From Escherichia coli (GTDB lineage: Bacteria > Pseudomonadota > Gammaproteobacteria > Enterobacterales > Enterobacteriaceae): a stretch of DNA of 64,000 bases. The notes beneath the pieces are model-generated. The model was not told where the DNA came from. It saw nothing but the letters and a program-made list of their open reading frames with translations, and did no database searches. Both the position numbers and the translations under genes were made by a program. Each line of letters opens with the position of its first letter. The stretch's first letter is position 1. The stretch lies in NCBI RefSeq assembly GCF_016903815.1, contig NZ_CP069973.1; one strand, written 5' to 3'. Positions 10,077-57,950 of the stretch are shown here, in pieces.

Positions 10077-10568
10077 CTAAAAATTGTCTTTTTTAAAGTC
10101 ATGCGGATTGAAAACTCGCTCTATTTTATTTTCTTGTGTTAATTGATACTCAGTAAAATCGTTAATACCAATATGAGTGTTACGATAAGGGTATTCATTA
10201 ATAACCATTAAGTAATTTTTCACGATGCAATTATCATTGCTCTTAATTGTCGGGAAACAGTAGAGATCTTCATACGGCCCTTCGATATATTTTTTATAGT
10301 CAGTGAAGCCATTACCGATATCAATGACATACCAGGTATGCCAACTACCTTCTGGTAGGGGATGTTGATTTTTAATTTCATTCTGATGCTTCAGATACCA
10401 ATTTATTTTATCGCTGTCAGTCCATGGCAGATGATCAACGACCAGAAAGACTGAATTGCCAGCATCAGAGTATGTATACAAAATCTGTACAGGACGCAAT
10501 GTCCATAAATTATAGATGCAGCATAGAAGAAATAAACATAATATAATTTTCTGGAGTTTACTTTTCAT
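10077..10568 (-). CDS. hypothetical exported or membrane-anchored protein; candidate immunity partner of the upstream gene
   Basis: 163 aa; N-terminal hydrophobic segment (KIILCLFLLCCIYNLW); start overlaps the upstream stop (ATGA); very AT-rich; no family recognised. Confidence 0.55.
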   Translation of the reverse strand: MKSKLQKIILCLFLLCCIYNLWTLRPVQILYTYSDAGNSVFLVVDHLPWTDSDKINWYLKHQNEIKNQHPLPEGSWHTWYVIDIGNGFTDYKKYIEGPYEDLYCFPTIKSNDNCIVKNYLMVINEYPYRNTHIGINDFTEYQLTQENKIERVFNPHDFKKDNF

Positions 10569-11413
10569 AGATAATTTTCGATTCTTTCGATAGTGTTAAA
10601 ATTGGTGAAAAAAGGTTTGAAAGCAAAGTCTTTATGCCGTTGTAAAAAGAACCATATGCGAAAAAATCTATATTTGCTGTAAGTCTTGTTTTTTATATCA
10701 GTTACATCCAAACCAAAGTGGTCTTGTGCTATGAAATGAATGGTAGCGCTCCAGCCCATAGGATATTTTTGAAAATTTAAAAGAGAGATTTTTTGAGCTG
10801 AGATATCATGAATGCTGATTCCCAGGCCATTAAAATTATCTTTAAAATCATTGAATTTATTTAGTCTTGATGAAAGTAATTCGATCTTAATCTTTTGTAG
10901 GAGAAGAGGCCGGTATCCTATCGTAGGTGTTGAAGAAATATCATTTTCGATACATTCTTTGATTACACGTATTGGGCTATTATAATCATATTTGTTTATT
11001 CGTTCATGAAAAGATAAGTTCAATTCCTGGCTATGGAAACTGTTGCCATTTCCATATCTAAAATGATCAATCAGATCCTGGATGAGTGTTTTGTATTGTC
11101 CAAAAAAGGAAAACATTTTTGCCAGATCTTTCATTTCTGCAAATAAAATATCAATACATTCACTTTGTGATATTTTTGTTCCGGAAGTTGGAACACTAAA
11201 AGCACCATAAGTAGAATTCGGCCCAGGAAAATGGTATTTAATGAGGCGGTAAGGATCAACTTTTGCAGAGATGTCGCTTAAGCCGAGTGAGAGAAAATCT
11301 TGTTCTTCCATATCCCCATATTGCATATCATCAGCAGAAAAATCATCGAATAAAGTAATAGTTTCGAAAAGTGTACAGGGCATATTAATTGATGAGCCTA
11401 ATATGTTGTTCAT
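10565..11413 (-). CDS. hypothetical 282-aa soluble protein; candidate orphan effector/toxin
   Basis: Long ORF in a strongly AT-rich block between corA and rarD; no signal peptide; translationally coupled to the downstream 163-aa gene; family not recognised. Confidence 0.55.
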   Translation of the reverse strand: MNNILGSSINMPCTLFETITLFDDFSADDMQYGDMEEQDFLSLGLSDISAKVDPYRLIKYHFPGPNSTYGAFSVPTSGTKISQSECIDILFAEMKDLAKMFSFFGQYKTLIQDLIDHFRYGNGNSFHSQELNLSFHERINKYDYNSPIRVIKECIENDISSTPTIGYRPLLLQKIKIELLSSRLNKFNDFKDNFNGLGISIHDISAQKISLLNFQKYPMGWSATIHFIAQDHFGLDVTDIKNKTYSKYRFFRIWFFLQRHKDFAFKPFFTNFNTIERIENYL

Positions 11414-23799: not shown

Positions 23800-24060
23800 T
23801 TATTTATTCTCACGTTGCACGAGATTGTATCCCTTTTCACTAACGTGGTAGTGAGGCATAGACTTATTCCCGCTATCCTCAATAATAACCAAACCTTCGT
23901 TAGCTAATTTGTTAACAATGTTAACAACATTCCCGAATCCTGGAATTTGCCTTATGGATAGTGTGCGATCGAGATTCATCCAGTTCCAGTTTATATCTTT
24001 CTCAGTCATAACGTTCAGCACGTTAAGTTCATTTTTAGTGATCACGATATTCTGTACCAA
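23800..24060 (-). CDS. small winged-helix-like protein, paralogue 2; candidate immunity protein
   Basis: 86 aa; roughly 55-60% identical by eye to the neighbouring 85-aa ORF (shared IPGFGNV..NIV.KL...GLV core); AT-rich island. Confidence 0.55.
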   Translation of the reverse strand: MVQNIVITKNELNVLNVMTEKDINWNWMNLDRTLSIRQIPGFGNVVNIVNKLANEGLVIIEDSGNKSMPHYHVSEKGYNLVQRENK

Positions 24061-24119
24061 AATTGATGAGTATCTTATTGAAAGATCACAATGTAAATCA
24101 TGCTCCTGTAATGGCTGGA

Positions 24120-24377
24120 TCAGAAGAGGTTGTCTTGTTGTTCTTTGATAAGATTCAATCCATATTGAGAAACTCTGTAGCGTGGTCTAGAGTTGCCCTC
24201 ACCATTTACGATATCAACCAACCCATGATTAACCAGCTTTGTTACGATATTCGCTACGTTGCCAAATCCTGGAATATTTCGTATAGCTAAAGTACGATCC
24301 AGCACCATCCAGCTCCAGTCAATATCTTTCTCAGCCATAACTTTCAGCACGTTAAATTCAACTATCGTAATCGTCAT
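24120..24377 (-). CDS. small winged-helix-like protein, paralogue 1; candidate cognate immunity protein
   Basis: 85 aa; start overlaps the stop of the Hcp-extension gene (ATGA), implying translational coupling. Confidence 0.55.
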   Translation of the reverse strand: MTITIVEFNVLKVMAEKDIDWSWMVLDRTLAIRNIPGFGNVANIVTKLVNHGLVDIVNGEGNSRPRYRVSQYGLNLIKEQQDNLF

Positions 24378-25507
24378 TTTGTTGCATCCGGATGAAATAA
24401 GTCAGTATCTTTAATTTTAAAGTCTTCTAGAGTTGCAGTATGTACATTATTCCATAATTCATATCCATCTAAACCTTTCGGTTCACCTGTTTCCCATCCT
24501 AAATTACAATAACGCTGATACTCGCGACATTCATGAGTATAGTAGTTCAGATCGTATTTTTCAGGAAGCAATTCTTTATTTGCTATTTTCTTTAGCCTTG
24601 AAATCATTACATCATTAGCTGGATCATGATCAAATCTGGAGATATGCTTTTCAACAATAGCGATACCTTCCCTGTTGATTGTTACGCCATCTATCGTCAG
24701 GTTTTCAATTGGACCACCGGCAAGGTCGGGATTAAATGGTCTTCCTGATACTGCTCCTCTGGCTCCGAAATGCTCAAGTGATTCCAAATCAGGGAATCTC
24801 ATTCTTCCCAGAACAACTCCAGCAACTATTGAAGCACCAGCGATGAGTAACCCTTTGTTATCCATAACTTGATCGTAACCAGCAGGTGCATCTCCTCCCA
24901 ACTTGTTTGCTGTTTCCCTGAATCCTTCGATATTCCCATTGTATATGCCGCCAGCAGCAAGCAGTCTGCCAACCGCTTTACTATTGAGTGTTTTGAGGCC
25001 ATTATCATCTTTAGTTTTTGGCCGTGGTATAAACAGACGGTTGTAGTTATCGGGAAATGCCAAATAACTAAATTCAGTATTAGCAATCAGATGCCTGGAG
25101 AGTATATATTCATAACTGACAGTGATGGTTTCTGTATCCAGATTGTTCTCAGTAAACAGGTGATTGATTGCTGATAAGAGCGCGCCGCGAAGTTGAATGT
25201 TGTAATATTTCTCCCATCGACCAAATCTATTGATCCGATAGAAGTCAAACTCCATGAACAACTGCTCGTTATTGTTAATAGCGTTAATAAGTAACGGGGA
25301 GCTTTTGTCAATCAATTTACAGAAACTAAGGCCATGCAATTGTGACCCTTTGCCTGTATTCGTAATACTATTAGAGAGCGAGAACGCGAAGATTTCATCT
25401 TCATGGCCAATCTGCCAGCGATTACCTATTGATGCGCTCGTTCCACAACGAGAGGAAATACATCCTTGTTGTTCTCCGGTTATGTTCAGGTAAATAATAT
25501 CACTCAT
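24374..25507 (-). CDS. Hcp (T6SS tube protein) fused to a C-terminal extension: candidate 'extended Hcp' toxin
   Basis: 377 aa; N-terminal ~150 aa aligns by eye to Hcp (IYLNITGEQQG ~ IKGESKD; FCKLIDKSSPLL ~ FTKYIDKSTPNL; FYRIN ~ WYKIN); ~220-aa extension with a Gly/Ala-rich hydrophobic stretch and an unassigned C-terminal domain. Confidence 0.75.
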   Translation of the reverse strand: MSDIIYLNITGEQQGCISSRCGTSASIGNRWQIGHEDEIFAFSLSNSITNTGKGSQLHGLSFCKLIDKSSPLLINAINNNEQLFMEFDFYRINRFGRWEKYYNIQLRGALLSAINHLFTENNLDTETITVSYEYILSRHLIANTEFSYLAFPDNYNRLFIPRPKTKDDNGLKTLNSKAVGRLLAAGGIYNGNIEGFRETANKLGGDAPAGYDQVMDNKGLLIAGASIVAGVVLGRMRFPDLESLEHFGARGAVSGRPFNPDLAGGPIENLTIDGVTINREGIAIVEKHISRFDHDPANDVMISRLKKIANKELLPEKYDLNYYTHECREYQRYCNLGWETGEPKGLDGYELWNNVHTATLEDFKIKDTDLFHPDATK

Positions 25508-51018: not shown

Positions 51019-51585
51019 GCATTGGTGCAAAACAAATGCCGGATGCGACGCTGGCTGAACTGCACCCCAAATGTTGGACATAATCTGACATCTGAAGGTG
51101 CAGTTTATGAAACATTCATTTGAAGTAAAAATTGCCGCTGTAAATCATTACCTGGCCGGTCATGCAGGCATCATTTCTACGGCAAAACTCTTTCAACTTT
51201 CTCACACCAGCCTCTCACACTGGATTAATCTTTTTCTTCTTCACGGTCCTCAGGCACTGGATTGCAGACACAAGCGTAGCTATTCTCCTGAAGATAAACT
51301 TTGCGTGGTTCTTTATGCTCTCGGGCATTCTGAGTCTCTACCCCGGGTAGCTGCCCGGTTTAACATTCCCAGCCACAACACGGTTAAAAACTGGATAAAA
51401 GGCTACCGCAAATCTGGTAATGAGGCCTTTATCAGGCGCAGGAAGGAGAAATGCATGACCCGTTCTGATGATACCCATGAAAACGAGGCAAACATGACGC
51501 CGGAAGAGATGAAGAATGAGCTGCGTTATCTTCGCGCAGAAAATGCATATCTGAAAGCCATGCAGGAGCATCTCCTGGAAAAAAA

Positions 51586-52488
<903 letters not shown>

Positions 52489-55027: not shown

Positions 55028-55654
55028 ATGAAAAAGATTTGGCTGGCGCTGGCTGGTTTAGTTTTAGCGTTTAGCGCATCGGCGGCGCAGTATGAAGATG
55101 GTAAACAGTATACTACCCTGGAAAAACCGGTAGCTGGCGCGCCGCAAGTGCTGGAGTTTTTCTCTTTCTTCTGCCCGCACTGCTATCAGTTTGAAGAAGT
55201 TCTGCATATTTCTGATAACGTGAAGAAAAAACTGCCGGAAGGCGTGAAGATGACTAAATACCACGTCAACTTCATGGGTGGTGACCTGGGCAAAGATTTG
55301 ACTCAGGCATGGGCAGTGGCGATGGCACTGGGCGTGGAAGACAAAGTCACTGTTCCGCTGTTTGAAGGCGTACAGAAAACCCAGACCATTCGTTCAGCAT
55401 CTGATATCCGCGATGTATTTATCAACGCAGGTATTAAAGGTGAAGAGTACGACGCGGCGTGGAACAGCTTCGTGGTGAAATCCCTGGTCGCTCAGCAGGA
55501 AAAAGCTGCAGCTGACGTGCAATTGCGTGGCGTTCCGGCGATGTTTGTTAACGGTAAATATCAGCTGAATCCGCAGGGTATGGATACCAGCAATATGGAT
55601 GTTTTTGTTCAGCAGTATGCTGATACTGTGAAATATCTGTCCGAGAAAAAATAA
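55028..55654 (+). CDS. dsbA: periplasmic thiol:disulfide oxidoreductase DsbA
   Basis: 208 aa; signal peptide and CPHC active site. Confidence 0.95.
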
Positions 55655-55671
55655 CTCAATGTAAATTACAT

Positions 55672-55700
55672 AAAGCCCGTGAATATTCACGGGCTTTTTT
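55672..55700 (+). terminator. dsbA rho-independent terminator
   Basis: aaagcccgtgaatattcacgggctttttt: perfect stem-loop plus T-run. Confidence 0.85.
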
Positions 55701-55702
55701 GT

Positions 55703-56410
55703 GCACAGAAAACCCCCAGCTAGGCTGGGGGTTCCGGAAAGCTTTCAGCTTTAAGCCAGTTATTAAAACCCCTTTTGATTTGTTAAAACACCTTGCGGTC
55801 TGGCAACTGCAAGTGTCAAACAAGAAATCAAAAGGGGGTCCCAATGGGGAACGAAAAGAGCTTAGCGCACACCCGATGGAACTGTAAATATCACATAGTT
55901 TTTGCGCCAAAATACCGAAGACAGGTGTTCTACAGAGAGAAGCGTAGAGCAATAGGCAGTATTTTGAGAAAGCTGTGTGAGTGGAAAAGTGTACGGATTC
56001 TGGAAGCTGAATGCTGTGCAGATCATATCCATATGCTTGTGGAGATCCCGCCCAAAATGAGCGTATCCGGCTTTATGGGATATCTGAAAGGGAAAAGCAG
56101 TCTGATGCTTTACGAGCAGTTTGGTGATTTGAAATTCAAATACAGGAACAGGGAGTTCTGGTGCAGAGGGTACTACGTCGATACGGTGGGTAAGAACACG
56201 GCGAAGATACAGGATTACATAAAGCACCAGCTTGAAGAGGATAAAATGGGAGAGCAGTTATCGATTCCCTATCCGGGCAGCCCGTTTACGGGCCGTAAGT
56301 AACGAAGTTGGATGCAAATGTCAGATCGTGTGCGCCTGTTAGGGCGCGGCTGGTAAGAGAGCCTTATAGGCGCATTTGAAAAACCTCCGGCTATGCCGGA
56401 GGATATTTAT
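55703..56410 (+). mobile_element. IS200-family (IS200/IS605) insertion sequence; boundaries approximate
   Basis: Y1 transposase gene preceded by a hairpin (aaacccccagctaggctgggggtt, 55709-55732) and a long-range pairing ccccttttgatt / aatcaaaagggggtc that buries the RBS, and followed by a hairpin (cctccggctatgccggagg, 56384-56402); all typical of IS200. Confidence 0.7.
55844..56302 (+). CDS. tnpA: IS200-family Y1 (HUH) transposase TnpA
   Basis: 152 aa from ATG at 55844; HUH motif (DHIHMLVEIPP) and catalytic Tyr region (YIKHQ). Confidence 0.9.
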   Translation: MGNEKSLAHTRWNCKYHIVFAPKYRRQVFYREKRRAIGSILRKLCEWKSVRILEAECCADHIHMLVEIPPKMSVSGFMGYLKGKSSLMLYEQFGDLKFKYRNREFWCRGYYVDTVGKNTAKIQDYIKHQLEEDKMGEQLSIPYPGSPFTGRK

Positions 56411-56519
56411 TTATTATTTAATAAATATAAATACATTCTGATAATGCGTCCTGCCGCTGGACATTATTTCAGCATAAGTGGATATTCAAAGTTTTGCTGT
56501 TTTATCAGGGAATATTTAT

Positions 56520-57950
56520 ATGATACGTAAGTCAGCTACAGGTGTTATTGTTGCGTTAGCCGTAATCTGGGGGGGTGGCACATGGTACACAGGTACGCAA
56601 ATTCAGCCTGGTGTCGAAAAGTTTATTAAAGATTTTAACGATGCTAAAAAGAAAGGTGAACATGCCTACGATATGACGTTAAGTTATAAAAACTTTGACA
56701 AAGGCTTTTTTAATTCTCATTTTCAAATGCAAATAACATTTGATAACGGTGCACCCGATCTCAATATCAAGCCAGGCCAGAAAGTTGCATTTGATGTGGA
56801 TGTTGAGCACGGTCCGTTGCCCATCACAATGTTAATGCGTAGTAATGTCATCCCCGCACTGGCAGCGGCAAAAGTGAACTTAGTGAATAATGAACTGACA
56901 CAACCGCTATTTATCGCCGCAAAAAATAAATCGCCCGTGGAAGCGACATTGCGATTCGCGTTTGGTGGCTCATTCTCCACGACATTAGATGTTGCCCCTG
57001 CAAAATATGGAAAGTTTTCTTTTGGTGAGGGCCAGTTTACTTTTAATGGTGATGGTAGTTCATTGTCTAACCTGGATATTGAAGGCAAAGTCGAAGATAT
57101 TGTTCTGCAATTATCACCAATGAACAAAGTAACGGCGAAAAGTTTTACCATTGATTCTCTGGCGCGATTAGAAGAAAAGAAATTTCCGGTTGGTGAAAGC
57201 GAGTCGAAATTTAATCAGATTAACATTATCAATCACGGGGAAGACGTTGCCCAAATCGATGCTTTCGTTGCAAAAACCAGGCTGGATCGCGTTAAAGACA
57301 AAGATTATATCAATGTCAATCTGACCTACGAACTTGATAAGTTAACAAAAGGGAATCAGAAACTCGGTAGTGGTGAGTGGTCATTGATTGCTGAATCTAT
57401 TGATCCCTCAGCGGTGCGCCAATTTATCATCCAGTATAACATTGCGATGCAGAAGCAGCTTGCTGCACACCCTGAGTTAGCAAACGATGAAGTTGCTCTG
57501 CAAGAAGTGAATGCTGCATTGTTCAAAGAGTATTTACCGTTATTACAAAAAAGTGAGCCGACCATTAAACAACCGGTAAGATGGAAGAACGCACTCGGCG
57601 AACTAAATGCCAATCTGGATATCAGTATTGCCGACCCAGCCAAATCCTCATCATCCACAAACAAAGATATTAAATCGCTCAATTTTGATGTGAAGTTACC
57701 GCTTAATGTCGTCACAGAAACCGCAAAACAGCTTAATTTATCTGAAGGGATGGATGCTGAAAAAGCGCAAAAGCAGGCTGATAAACAAATCAGCGGGATG
57801 ATGACCTTAGGTCAGATGTTTCAGTTAATCACGATTGACAACAATACCGCCTCGCTGCAACTGCGTTATACACCGGGTAAAGTTGTTTTTAACGGACAGG
57901 AGATGAGCGAAGAAGAATTTATGTCTCGTGCCGGACGTTTTGTTCATTAA
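56520..57950 (+). CDS. yihF: DUF945-family protein YihF
   Basis: 476 aa from ATG at 56520 (MIRKSATGVIVALAVIWGGG...); N-terminal TM anchor. Confidence 0.85.
   Translation: MIRKSATGVIVALAVIWGGGTWYTGTQIQPGVEKFIKDFNDAKKKGEHAYDMTLSYKNFDKGFFNSHFQMQITFDNGAPDLNIKPGQKVAFDVDVEHGPLPITMLMRSNVIPALAAAKVNLVNNELTQPLFIAAKNKSPVEATLRFAFGGSFSTTLDVAPAKYGKFSFGEGQFTFNGDGSSLSNLDIEGKVEDIVLQLSPMNKVTAKSFTIDSLARLEEKKFPVGESESKFNQINIINHGEDVAQIDAFVAKTRLDRVKDKDYINVNLTYELDKLTKGNQKLGSGEWSLIAESIDPSAVRQFIIQYNIAMQKQLAAHPELANDEVALQEVNAALFKEYLPLLQKSEPTIKQPVRWKNALGELNANLDISIADPAKSSSSTNKDIKSLNFDVKLPLNVVTETAKQLNLSEGMDAEKAQKQADKQISGMMTLGQMFQLITIDNNTASLQLRYTPGKVVFNGQEMSEEEFMSRAGRFVH

What the first reader, a model, noticed from the sequence alone, without database searches (positions are those of the whole stretch)
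55703..56410. IS200-family element between dsbA and yihF with RBS-occluding stem
The Y1 transposase gene is preceded by a terminator-like hairpin and by a long-range pairing (ccccttttgatt with aatcaaaagggggtc) that would sequester its Shine-Dalgarno sequence. This is the known self-silencing architecture of IS200. It lies immediately after the dsbA terminator and upstream of yihF, so it may displace or alter the yihF promoter.
Basis: partly seen in the sequence, partly recalled or inferred. Interest (0 to 1): 0.4.

Follow-up and report, generated by a model that had tools for sequence, protein, structure and literature searches.

The report
Ordinary IS200C insertion after dsbA
This is an intact copy of the well-known small mobile element IS200 (variant IS200C), sitting in the tail of the dsbA transcription terminator in one E. 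coli clone and carrying the element's textbook self-silencing RNA structures, so it is real but ordinary.

Summary
Window 55701-56411 (711 bp, + strand) is an intact IS200C. It has one gene, tnpA (55844-56302), encoding a 152-aa Y1/HUH transposase. It has no terminal inverted repeats. It has directly repeated subterminal hairpins at its left and right ends (LE, RE). It made no target duplication.

The LE hairpin (55711-55733) and the stem that buries the Shine-Dalgarno (SD) sequence (55769-55784 with 55822-55837) sit where published IS200 maps place them. Rfam STnc490 matches at 146 bits. The SD stem shows compensatory changes across relatives from several phyla.

Deleting 55701-56411 restores the empty dsbA-yihF spacer exactly. 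Only 106 of 5,426 complete E. coli genomes carry the insertion. Every one of the 60 listed has 17-32 matching places, about one of which is the dsbA-yihF flank.

The idea that the yihF promoter is displaced is not supported. The 108 nt upstream of yihF are untouched.

One extra result: the element entered the T-tract of the dsbA terminator, 6 nt past the stem. All 74 distinct left-end sites folded (10 in E. coli, the rest in relatives from other phyla) lie a few nt into the T-run after a hairpin, with target TTNTT. This matches the family's guide-sequence mechanism. It may reflect real targeting of terminators.

Verdict: already known, low interest.

The parts
55672..55700 (+). dsbA intrinsic terminator: hairpin AAAGCCCGTGAAT/ATTCACGGGCTTT plus T-tract 55695-55700. 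This is the target site. The element entered after the 6th of 7 T's.
   Evidence: Perfect 13-nt inverted repeat (I4). DNA fold z = -7.2. Comparison with the empty site.
55701..56411 (+). Complete IS200C element, 711 bp, no target-site duplication.
   Evidence: Deleting it gives an ungapped 1740/1740 alignment to empty sites L002 and L003. Positions 55701-56409 are 100% identical to copies at other loci. The right terminus is defined by the conserved tail in relatives.
55709..55712 (+). Putative left guide sequence AAAA, just 5' of the left-end hairpin core (its last two A's form the two basal A-T pairs of the 10-pair hairpin). Inferred to pair with the T-rich target.
   Evidence: Position inferred by analogy with IS608 AAAG/TTAC (PMC5027513; PMC6006769). 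Target pentamers are TTTTT or TTNTT at 62 of 77 sites. Inference only.
55711..55733 (+). Left-end subterminal hairpin. It is inferred to serve as the transposase binding structure and as the bidirectional transcription terminator that blocks read-in (published IS200 nt 12-34).
   Evidence: Rfam structure line. PMC4513863. PMC5435999, about 85% termination in Salmonella.
55769..55837 (+). [quoted passage not shown] Arms are 55769-55784 and 55822-55837.
   Evidence: Covariation: 7 of 13 pairs have compensatory changes, 94% of cells are paired, and 0 of 500 shuffles reach the whole-structure score.
55832..55839 (+). Shine-Dalgarno sequence AAGGGGGT of tnpA. Positions 55832-55837 lie inside the stem.
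   Evidence: Sequence. The same SD is quoted in PMC4513863.
55844..56302 (+). tnpA, a 152-aa Y1/HUH transposase with H61-I62-H63 and catalytic Y125.
   Evidence: Alignment to IS608 TnpA 2A6M and to other solved TnpA structures. Residue positions.
55763..55852 (-). [quoted passage not shown] Coordinates are inferred.
   Evidence: Definition from PMC4513863 and PMC2515195. The minus strand folds as a long stem followed by UUUU, z = -4.6.
55860..55888 (-). Candidate art200 promoter: -35 TTTACA (reverse complement of 55883-55888), 17-nt spacer, weak -10 CTAAGC (reverse complement of 55860-55865).
   Evidence: Sequence. Fits the published description of a good -35 and an almost unrecognisable -10. 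Not tested.
56331..56374 (+). Additional imperfect hairpin in the right-end region, downstream of the tnpA stop codon.
   Evidence: I9. DNA fold.
56379..56411 (+). Right end: putative guide AAAAA (56379-56383), subterminal hairpin CCTCCGGC-TAT-GCCGGAGG (56384-56402), and 9-nt tail ATATTTATT (56403-56411) ending in the cleavage pentamer TTATT. It also looks like a terminator on both strands.
   Evidence: Direct repeat of the left-end hairpin, 78% over 23 nt (D5). Terminator scan. Fold. Tail conserved at 38 right-end sites in relatives.
56412..56519 (+). Undisturbed 108-nt region upstream of yihF. It holds two weak sigma-70-like sites (56418-56445 and 56458-56486).
   Evidence: The yihF ATG is at 56520.

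Best explanation
Window 55701-56411 is an intact and recently mobile copy of insertion sequence IS200C. It belongs to the IS200 subgroup of the IS200/IS605 family.

**Transposition (inferred from the family).** Its only gene encodes a Y1/HUH transposase. In this family the transposase binds subterminal hairpins on one DNA strand. It excises that strand as a circle. It then re-inserts the circle, without target duplication, 3' of a short sequence that pairs with a 'guide' lying 5' of the left-end hairpin.

**What is shown here.** The guide is an A-run and the target is a T-run. The copy landed 6 nt into the T-tract of the dsbA intrinsic terminator. Its active strand lies on the lagging-strand template.

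**Silencing.** Expression is held down by the published IS200 devices.
- The left-end hairpin terminates read-in transcription. Here it stands in tandem with the dsbA terminator.
- A conserved 5'UTR stem buries the Shine-Dalgarno sequence.
- An antisense RNA (art200) covers the same region.

The sequence features, the ends, the polymorphism and the covariation are shown directly. The transposition chemistry, the termination and the art200 expression are inferred from work on Salmonella IS200, IS608 and ISDra2.

**Local effect.** The likely effect is neutral. dsbA keeps its hairpin plus six U's. yihF keeps its own 108-nt upstream region. yihF becomes more insulated from any dsbA read-through.
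For: - **Transposase family.** Pfam Y1_Tnp 3.8e-38. NCBIfam transpos_IS200 equivalog at 147.7 bits against a cut-off of 55. HUH and the catalytic Tyr align with IS608, ISDra2 and Sulfolobus TnpA structures.
- **Annotation.** RefSeq annotates the identical DNA as IS200C.
- **Single gene.** Only one plausible gene is present.
- **Ends.** There are no terminal inverted repeats. Instead there are directly repeated end hairpins, each preceded by an A-run (D5).
- **Excision point.** Precise deletion of 711 bp recreates the empty site with no gap. The right-end tail is conserved in 38 sites of relatives.
- **Target.** The target is TTNTT.
- **Distribution.** 106 of 5,426 genomes are filled. The rest that were sampled are empty.
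- **Recent mobility.** Copies 100% identical over 709 bp occur at lacZ-lacY, nagE-glnS, ydcL-ydcO, yfeX-pbp4B and a prophage site; a 99.9% copy sits at uhpT-adeD.
- **Silencing structures.** Rfam STnc490 at 146 bits. Folds. Covariation. Positions match PMC4513863 and PMC5435999.
- **Strand.** GC skew is positive on the + strand across the whole window, and the rrn operon is on the + strand. This puts the element's top strand on the lagging-strand template, as reported for the family (PMC5027513).
Against: - Nothing contradicts the identification.
- Mobility, termination by the left-end hairpin, art200 expression and the guide-target pairing were not tested for this E. coli variant.
- The published IS200 length is 707 bp against 711 bp here. 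I could not read the ISfinder IS200C reference to check its annotated ends.
- A 2-bp TT duplication (709 bp + TT) cannot be excluded from the E. coli data alone. Every target ends in TT.
- The Rfam model matches the sense strand, whereas STnc490/art200 is described as antisense. The Rfam hit therefore marks the region, not the transcript.
Confidence: 0.93

Rival explanations
1. The copy is an immobile relic, kept only as a source of small RNAs (art200, 5'tnpA), as has been proposed for Salmonella IS200.
For: IS200 is described as transposing at a notoriously low frequency and as apparently not mobile (PMC4513863; PMC12594629 abstract). All the silencing devices are intact in this copy.
Against: The ORF, both ends and the catalytic residues are intact. 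Copies 100% identical over 709 bp sit at several different loci. The genomes that carry this insertion each show 17-32 matching places, against a median of 1 in genomes that have any. This site is filled in only 2% of genomes. Together these point to recent transposition in this clone.
Confidence: 0.07
2. The insertion displaces or rewires the yihF promoter and changes yihF expression.
For: The element lies between dsbA and yihF. It replaces the sequence upstream of position -108 relative to the yihF ATG. It adds two more hairpin terminators between dsbA and yihF.
Against: The insertion point is inside the dsbA terminator T-tract. Both sigma-70-like sites (56418-56445 and 56458-56486) and the whole 108-nt upstream region lie downstream of the insertion. 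Over that stretch the allele differs from the empty alleles at only three positions. No hybrid promoter spans the right-end junction. No literature on a yihF promoter was found.
Confidence: 0.1
3. The constant position after terminators is not targeting of terminators. The element needs only a T-run. Selection removes insertions elsewhere, so the survivors sit at the neutral spot just past a terminator.
For: The family's target recognition needs only 4-5 nt. A paper lists IS200C copies simply as lying 'within a T-rich region' (PMC6963479). Genomic copies are survivors, not raw events.
Against: In this window only 11.8% of intergenic TTTTT sites have a strict GC hairpin within 9 nt upstream. 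Among the E. coli IS200C sites the figure is 8 of 10, and the other 2 have looser hairpins. The binomial probability is about 1e-6. All 74 sites folded sit after a hairpin, and in 46 of them the insertion is 6-7 nt past the last G:C pair. In T-runs of 8 and 10, insertion still fell after T7. The E. coli copies are near-identical, so selection has had little time to act.
Confidence: 0.4

Closest known systems
IS200 of Salmonella enterica (Lam & Roth; Beuzon et al. 1999; Ellis et al. 2015, PMC4513863)
   Same: Same organisation: a single tnpA gene, a left-end terminator hairpin at nt 12-34, an SD-sequestering stem at nt 69-138, the SD sequence AAGGGGGU, and an antisense art200 region. The Rfam model built on Salmonella sequence matches end to end at 146 bits.
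   Different: This is the E. coli variant IS200C. By my end definition it is 711 bp, against the published 707 bp. It is present at high copy number in this clone, whereas LT2 has 6 copies and the element is reported as nearly immobile there.
IS1541 of Yersinia pestis / Y. pseudotuberculosis
   Same: Described as closely related to IS200. It also expresses STnc490 and reaches high copy number. One copy lies between pheL and pheA, which is at an attenuator terminator (PMC3082878).
   Different: Different host and sequence variant. I did not compare it directly here.
IS608 (Helicobacter pylori) and ISDra2 (Deinococcus radiodurans), the mechanistic paradigms of IS200/IS605
   Same: Same Y1/HUH TnpA fold family, with E 4e-19 and 2e-16 to their solved structures. 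Also shared: subterminal hairpins, a guide sequence 5' of the hairpin foot, insertion 3' of a 4-5 nt target, no duplication, and a bias toward the lagging-strand template.
   Different: Those elements also carry tnpB. Their targets are TTAC and TTGAT. Here there is no tnpB, the target is TTNTT and the guide is an A-run. Insertions are found after hairpins.
REP sequences and their RAYT (TnpA-REP) transposases
   Same: Related Y1 proteins act on extragenic hairpins that carry a 5' guide tetranucleotide. There is a weak NCBIfam match to REP_Tyr_transpos at 32 bits.
   Different: That match is below the family cut-off of 80 bits. This element is a bounded, multi-copy IS that carries its own gene. 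It is not a domesticated single-copy RAYT.

Membership tests
IS200/IS605 family (IS200 subgroup) | Encodes a roughly 150-aa Y1 HUH transposase (Pfam PF01797) with the HUH motif and a single catalytic Tyr. | tested here: met
   Pfam at 130.7 bits against a cut-off of 23. NCBIfam transpos_IS200 at 147.7 bits against 55. H61-I-H63 and Y125 align with the corresponding HIH and Tyr of IS608 TnpA.
IS200/IS605 family (IS200 subgroup) | No terminal inverted repeats. Subterminal hairpins at both ends, on the same strand. | tested here: met
   No inverted repeat links the two termini. The two end hairpins, each with a 5' A-run, form a 23-nt direct repeat at 78% identity (D5). Both hairpins fold in single-stranded DNA. 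The two ends are printed side by side.
IS200/IS605 family (IS200 subgroup) | Insertion without target-site duplication. | tested here: met
   Deleting 55701-56411 gives an ungapped match to two empty sites. The terminal TT belongs to the element. The tail ATATTTATT is conserved at 38 right-end sites, and A, C, G or T follows it. Caveat: the E. coli data alone cannot exclude a TT duplication.
IS200/IS605 family (IS200 subgroup) | Left end always abuts a specific 4-5 nt target, related to the element's own right terminal sequence. | tested here: met
   Among 77 distinct left-end sites: TTTTT 45, TTGTT 7, TTCTT 5, TTATT 5. The right end terminates in TTATT.
IS200/IS605 family (IS200 subgroup) | IS200 subgroup carries tnpA only, with no tnpB. 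| tested here: met
   tnpA is the only plausible gene in the 711 bp; the other ORFs are an N-terminally extended tnpA frame and overlaps without family support. Annotated copies list only tnpA.
IS200/IS605 family (IS200 subgroup) | Active (top) strand lies on the lagging-strand template. | tested here: met
   GC skew is positive on the + strand in all eight 8-kb bins. The rrn operon is on the + strand. This is a single copy, so it is consistent rather than statistical.
IS200/IS605 family (IS200 subgroup) | Single-strand 'peel and paste' transposition through a circular ssDNA intermediate. | not testable with these tools
   Requires biochemistry or genetics. Inferred from IS608 and ISDra2.
IS200 self-silencing architecture (Beuzon 1999; Ellis 2015) | Left-end hairpin at nt 12-34 that terminates impinging transcription. 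| tested here: met
   The hairpin is present at 55711-55733, which is nt 12-34 if nt 1 is 55700. Its termination activity was not tested.
IS200 self-silencing architecture (Beuzon 1999; Ellis 2015) | [quoted passage not shown] | tested here: met
   Located at 55769-55837. It appears in both the MFE and centroid folds, z = -4.4. Seven of 13 pairs are compensatory across 13 relatives, and 0 of 500 shuffles reach the whole-structure score.
IS200 self-silencing architecture (Beuzon 1999; Ellis 2015) | [quoted passage not shown] Hfq binds upstream of the SD. | tested here: inconclusive
   The region matches Rfam STnc490, but on the sense strand. The minus strand folds as a stem plus a U-run. A plausible -35 TTTACA / weak -10 promoter is present. 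Expression and Hfq binding cannot be tested here.

The most novel reading that the evidence does not exclude
IS200-group elements actively select intrinsic transcription terminators as integration sites. In single-stranded form, a terminator is a GC hairpin followed by a T-run. That resembles the element's own right end, which is a hairpin followed by ATATTTATT. The element's A-run guide pairs with the T-tract, and integration falls about 6-7 nt past the stem.

An alternative route to the same result is that the non-template T-tract becomes accessible in RNA polymerase paused at the terminator.

The pattern holds in Enterobacteriaceae, Vibrio, Desulfovibrionaceae, Oxalobacter, Firmicutes and candidate phyla. 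It would explain how these elements spread while doing almost no harm and while staying transcriptionally insulated. In the searchable literature I found only partial statements: 'T-rich region' (PMC6963479) and an over-representation of terminators upstream of IS200/IS605 (bioRxiv 10.1101/2025.07.22.666184). Older subscription papers and the family review could not be read, so this may already be described.
Probability: 0.3. Interest if true: 0.45.

Novelty: already known. Interest (0 to 1): 0.15.

Why it matters
As submitted, the finding matters little. It is a correctly recognised copy of a long-studied insertion sequence with its textbook regulatory structures. RefSeq already annotates it.

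It has three practical uses:
- It is a clone marker. The dsbA-yihF insertion is present in about 2% of complete E. coli genomes, and the listed carriers are rich in IS200C copies.
- It gives an exact definition of the IS200C ends: 711 bp with no duplication.
- It illustrates that 'immobile' IS200 has clearly expanded in some E. coli lineages.

The side observation is the only part with wider interest. IS200-group elements across phyla sit a few nucleotides into the T-tract of intrinsic terminators. If this is true targeting, it would explain the benign, silent lifestyle of the smallest autonomous IS. It could also suggest a way to direct single-strand integration to terminator-like structures.

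Tried and rejected
- **MAFFT alignment of filled and empty alleles.** It misplaced the short left flank of the empty alleles. I replaced it with an explicit in-silico deletion and an ungapped comparison.
- **Weak Rfam hits near 55590-55740.** Hits to Leu, Thr and Trp leaders, MicC and MicX are all far below their gathering scores. They only reflect the dsbA terminator and left-end hairpins, so I rejected them.
- **First hairpin classifier.** It labelled many true terminators as 'tail not T-rich' because it extended stems into A-run/T-run pairs. I replaced it with a stricter detector plus a control and with DNA folds. The strict detector still misses two E. coli sites: one has a G-T pair and the other a long loop.
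- **Literature that could not be read.** The He et al. 2015 family review and Beuzon 1999 are not held.
- **Literature searches that found nothing.** No paper was found on a yihF promoter. No explicit statement of terminator targeting was found.
- **Sequence type of the clone.** One carrier is labelled O102:H6. PMC6963479 reports that serotype for ST38, and from memory it is also typical of ST405. The sequence type is therefore left open.
- **Scan hits that are not IS ends.** L014, L022, L023, L046, L067, L084, L090 and L130 were set aside.
- **Copies within one genome.** I did not list all copies inside a single genome, because the search tool returns one place per record.
Full report
**1. 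What is in the sequence**

The region lies in an E. coli chromosome segment running cyaA ... rrnA ... mobAB-yihD-srkA-dsbA-[element]-yihF-yihG-polA-spf-csrC. The window has 0 mismatches over 7.4 kb around the element, and 3 mismatches over 50 kb, to strain 7/2, NZ_CP023820.1.

- dsbA ends at 55654.
- A perfect 13-bp-arm hairpin (55672-55697) followed by six T's (55695-55700) forms the dsbA terminator.
- From 55701 the sequence is foreign.
- An ORF at 55844-56302 encodes a 152-aa protein. It matches Pfam Y1_Tnp (3.8e-38) and the NCBIfam IS200 transposase equivalog (147.7 bits against a cut-off of 55).
- The protein aligns over its whole core to the solved transposases of IS608, ISDra2 and two Sulfolobus elements. 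The HUH motif (H61-I-H63) and the catalytic tyrosine (Y125) are conserved.
- RefSeq annotates the identical DNA as 'IS200/IS605-like element IS200C family transposase'.

**2.

AACCCCCAGC-TAG-GCTGGGGGTT (55711-55733) is a perfect 10-bp hairpin. A match was never seen in 100 shuffles.

CCCCTTTTGATT (55769-55780) is the exact complement of AATCAAAAGGGG (55826-55837). The full arms are 55769-55784 and 55822-55837, and they are 94% complementary. They enclose most of the Shine-Dalgarno sequence AAGGGGGT (55832-55839), upstream of the ATG at 55844.

RNA folding of 55703-55870 gives exactly these two helices in both the minimum-energy and centroid structures. The z-score is -4.4, and 0 of 200 shuffles fold as well.

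Rfam's STnc490 model covers the IS200 left end and 5'UTR. It matches 55711-55834 end to end at 146 bits, against a gathering score of 56.

These positions coincide with the published map of Salmonella IS200, which places the terminator at nt 12-34 and the SD-sequestering stem-loop at nt 69-138 (PMC4513863). Setting nt 1 at 55700 gives 55711-55733 and 55768-55837.

I tested the SD stem for covariation. I aligned 13 left ends: E. coli, two Vibrio species, Budvicia, Brenneria, Tatumella, Mailhella, and genomes labelled Saccharibacteria and Clostridiaceae.
- In the SD helix, 7 of 13 pairs show compensatory double changes.
- 94% of cells in that helix are paired.
- None of 500 column shuffles reached the observed score for the whole structure.
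- Slid registers collapse to 39-59% paired.

The left-end hairpin itself cannot be judged this way, because the search pattern fixed it.

**3. Exact ends and polymorphism**

Against 5,426 complete E. coli genomes, the dsbA-yihF interval is filled in 106 (2%). In the others that were sampled it appears as a two-piece, 740-bp match, which is an empty site.

Deleting 55701-56411 (711 bp) from the window gives a sequence that aligns without any gap to two empty alleles (1740 of 1740 positions). Only scattered SNPs remain, and the junction is identical...CACGGGCTTTTTT|TATTATTTAAT....

The target run is all T, so E. coli alone cannot separate '709 bp + TT duplication' from '711 bp, no duplication'. 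Relatives settle it. At 38 right ends from other taxa, the hairpin is followed by a conserved 9-nt tail (ATATTTATT or close variants). After that tail, A, C, G or T occurs. The TT therefore belongs to the element, and there is no target duplication.

**4. Anatomy as a member of IS200/IS605**

- There are no terminal inverted repeats.
- Instead, the left-end hairpin with its 5' A-run (55709-55731) and the right-end hairpin with its 5' A-run (56380-56402) form a direct repeat, 78% identical over 23 nt (D5). Both fold in single-stranded DNA.
- This matches the family's hallmark. The transposase binds subterminal hairpins on one strand. The cleavage sites are read by a 'guide' just 5' of each hairpin foot (PMC6006769; PMC5027513).
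- Here the guides would be AAAA (55709-55712) and AAAAA (56379-56383). The sequences they would read are the T-run flanking the left end and the terminal TTATT of the right end. This assignment is by analogy and is not tested.
- No tnpB is present.
- GC skew is positive on the + strand throughout the window, and the rrn operon is on the + strand. The element's top strand is therefore the lagging-strand template, which is the orientation reported for the family.

**5. Regulation**

The published picture for Salmonella IS200 has four layers:
- a weak promoter with a start near nt 40;
- a bidirectional left-end terminator that stops about 85% of read-in transcription;
- an SD-occluding stem that represses translation about 20-fold;

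All the corresponding sequence features are present in this copy. The inferred art200 would run on the minus strand from about 55852 to about 55763. That stretch folds as one long stem followed by UUUU, with z = -4.6. Upstream of it lie TTTACA, a 17-nt spacer and CTAAGC. This fits the paper's remark that the -35 is good and the -10 is almost unrecognisable. Expression was not tested.

The Rfam hit is on the sense strand, although STnc490 is antisense. The original table gave intergenic-region coordinates for STnc470-640. The model probably represents the region rather than the transcript. That is my inference.

**6. Is it active?**

The copy is 100% identical over 709 bp to copies at lacZ-lacY, nagE-glnS, ydcL-ydcO, yfeX-pbp4B and a prophage site, in this and other strains. 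Copies at 99.2-99.9% identity sit at uhpT-adeD, plaP-tsuA, fdnI-yddM and downstream of pgm.

The 60 best genomes carrying the dsbA-yihF insertion are all 100% identical over 1,451 bp. Each shows 17-32 matching places, about one of which is the dsbA-yihF flank. The median among genomes with any IS200C match is 1. A population study lists IS200C at up to 17 copies.

This points to recent expansion in one clone. One member of that clone is labelled O102:H6; the sequence type is left open.

**7. Effect on neighbours**

dsbA keeps its hairpin and six U's.

yihF starts at 56520. The 108 nt upstream of it (56412-56519) are contiguous with yihF. Over that stretch the window differs from the two empty alleles at only three positions. 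Both sigma-70-like matches (56418-56445 and 56458-56486) lie inside those 108 nt.

The right-end hairpin plus its T-rich tail looks like a terminator on both strands. The element most likely insulates yihF rather than activating or displacing its promoter. No literature on a yihF promoter was found, so this remains an inference.

**8. Side result: terminators as targets**

All 10 E. coli sites examined have the left end abutting a hairpin plus T-run that follows the 3' end of a co-directional upstream gene.

A scan of one genome per species for the hairpin motif returned 120 loci.

Among 77 distinct left-end junctions, the five bases before the element are:

| Pentamer | Count |
|---|---|
| TTTTT | 45 |
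| TTGTT | 7 |
| TTCTT | 5 |
| TTATT | 5 |

In the 74 junctions whose left-end boundary fits the T-run-then-G/A rule:
- The 45 nt upstream fold into a hairpin in every case, though a few are weak. The median is -11.6 kcal/mol with DNA parameters.
- In 46 of the 74, the insertion point lies 6-7 nt after the last G:C pair.

As a control, only 11.8% of intergenic TTTTT sites in this window have a strict GC hairpin within 9 nt. Among the E. coli IS sites the figure is 8 of 10, giving a binomial probability of 1.4e-6.

In E. coli sites where the T-run is longer than 7 (8 and 10 T's), insertion was still after the 7th T.

Supporting anecdotes come from the literature. Two Salmonella small RNAs lie 'just upstream' of IS200 copies. 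Yersinia IS1541 lies between pheL and pheA.

Published statements I could find stop short of this. One calls the sites a 'T-rich region'. [quoted passage not shown]

Two readings remain open. One is true structural targeting, either because a terminator mimics the right end or because ssDNA is exposed at paused RNA polymerase. The other is a T-run preference plus survivorship. Key older papers were not readable.

**9. Verdict**

The finding is a correct identification of a known, annotated insertion sequence with its known self-silencing architecture.

- Novelty: already known.
- Interest: low (0.15).
- The most novel reading not excluded is active targeting of intrinsic terminators by the IS200 group. 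I give it a probability of about 0.3 of being both true and undescribed, with moderate interest if so.

Noticed in passing
window 55672-55700; loci L004-L013 and about 65 further left-end sites in L024-L132: IS200-group elements from many phyla sit a few nt (mostly 6-7) into the T-tract of a GC hairpin, which is an intrinsic terminator. The left end faces the T-run. The target pentamer is TTNTT, like the element's own right terminus TTATT.
   Followed up: partly
window 51107-52455: An IS3-like IS1397 transposase gene lies just downstream of the rrnA 5S rRNA and before mobB. It is annotated in the identical strain 7/2 record. This is a second mobile element close to the IS200C copy.
   Followed up: no
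window 23800-25507 (minus strand): Between metE and ysgA there is an isolated gene annotated as type VI secretion tube protein TssD, 377 aa. Two small hypothetical genes sit next to it. It looks like a small inserted island.
   Followed up: no
window 10077-11413 (minus strand): A gene pair annotated as a DUF943 family protein and a YPO3983 family protein lies between corA and rarD. Function unknown.
   Followed up: no
window 55711-55834: The Rfam STnc490 model matches the strand that is sense to tnpA. The papers that define STnc490/art200 say the RNA is antisense to tnpA. The family hit marks the region, not the transcribed strand.
   Followed up: partly
L014:9075-9093, L067:8303-8321, L084:10363-10381, L090:6508-6526, L130 (near 9684): Citrobacter, Enterobacter, Kluyvera and Pluralibacter, plus one further locus, share a conserved non-IS site. 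It carries a near-identical 19-nt hairpin, CCGCCAGCTAGGCTGGCGG. A second hairpin and the sequence ACAAAACAGCA precede it. Its nature is unknown.
   Followed up: no
E. coli plasmid records H57-H61 and others: Many E. coli plasmids carry only nt 1-337 of IS200C, a truncated left part. O157 plasmids carry a roughly 140-bp right-end fragment at about 92% identity with no annotation.
   Followed up: no
L015-L020, L031-L035, L059-L066, L072-L083, L093-L123: In metagenome-assembled and draft genomes (Clostridia, Mailhella, Oxalobacter, Vibrio ruber and others), contigs very often end 50-220 nt from this hairpin motif. High-copy IS200-like elements appear to break assemblies there.
   Followed up: no
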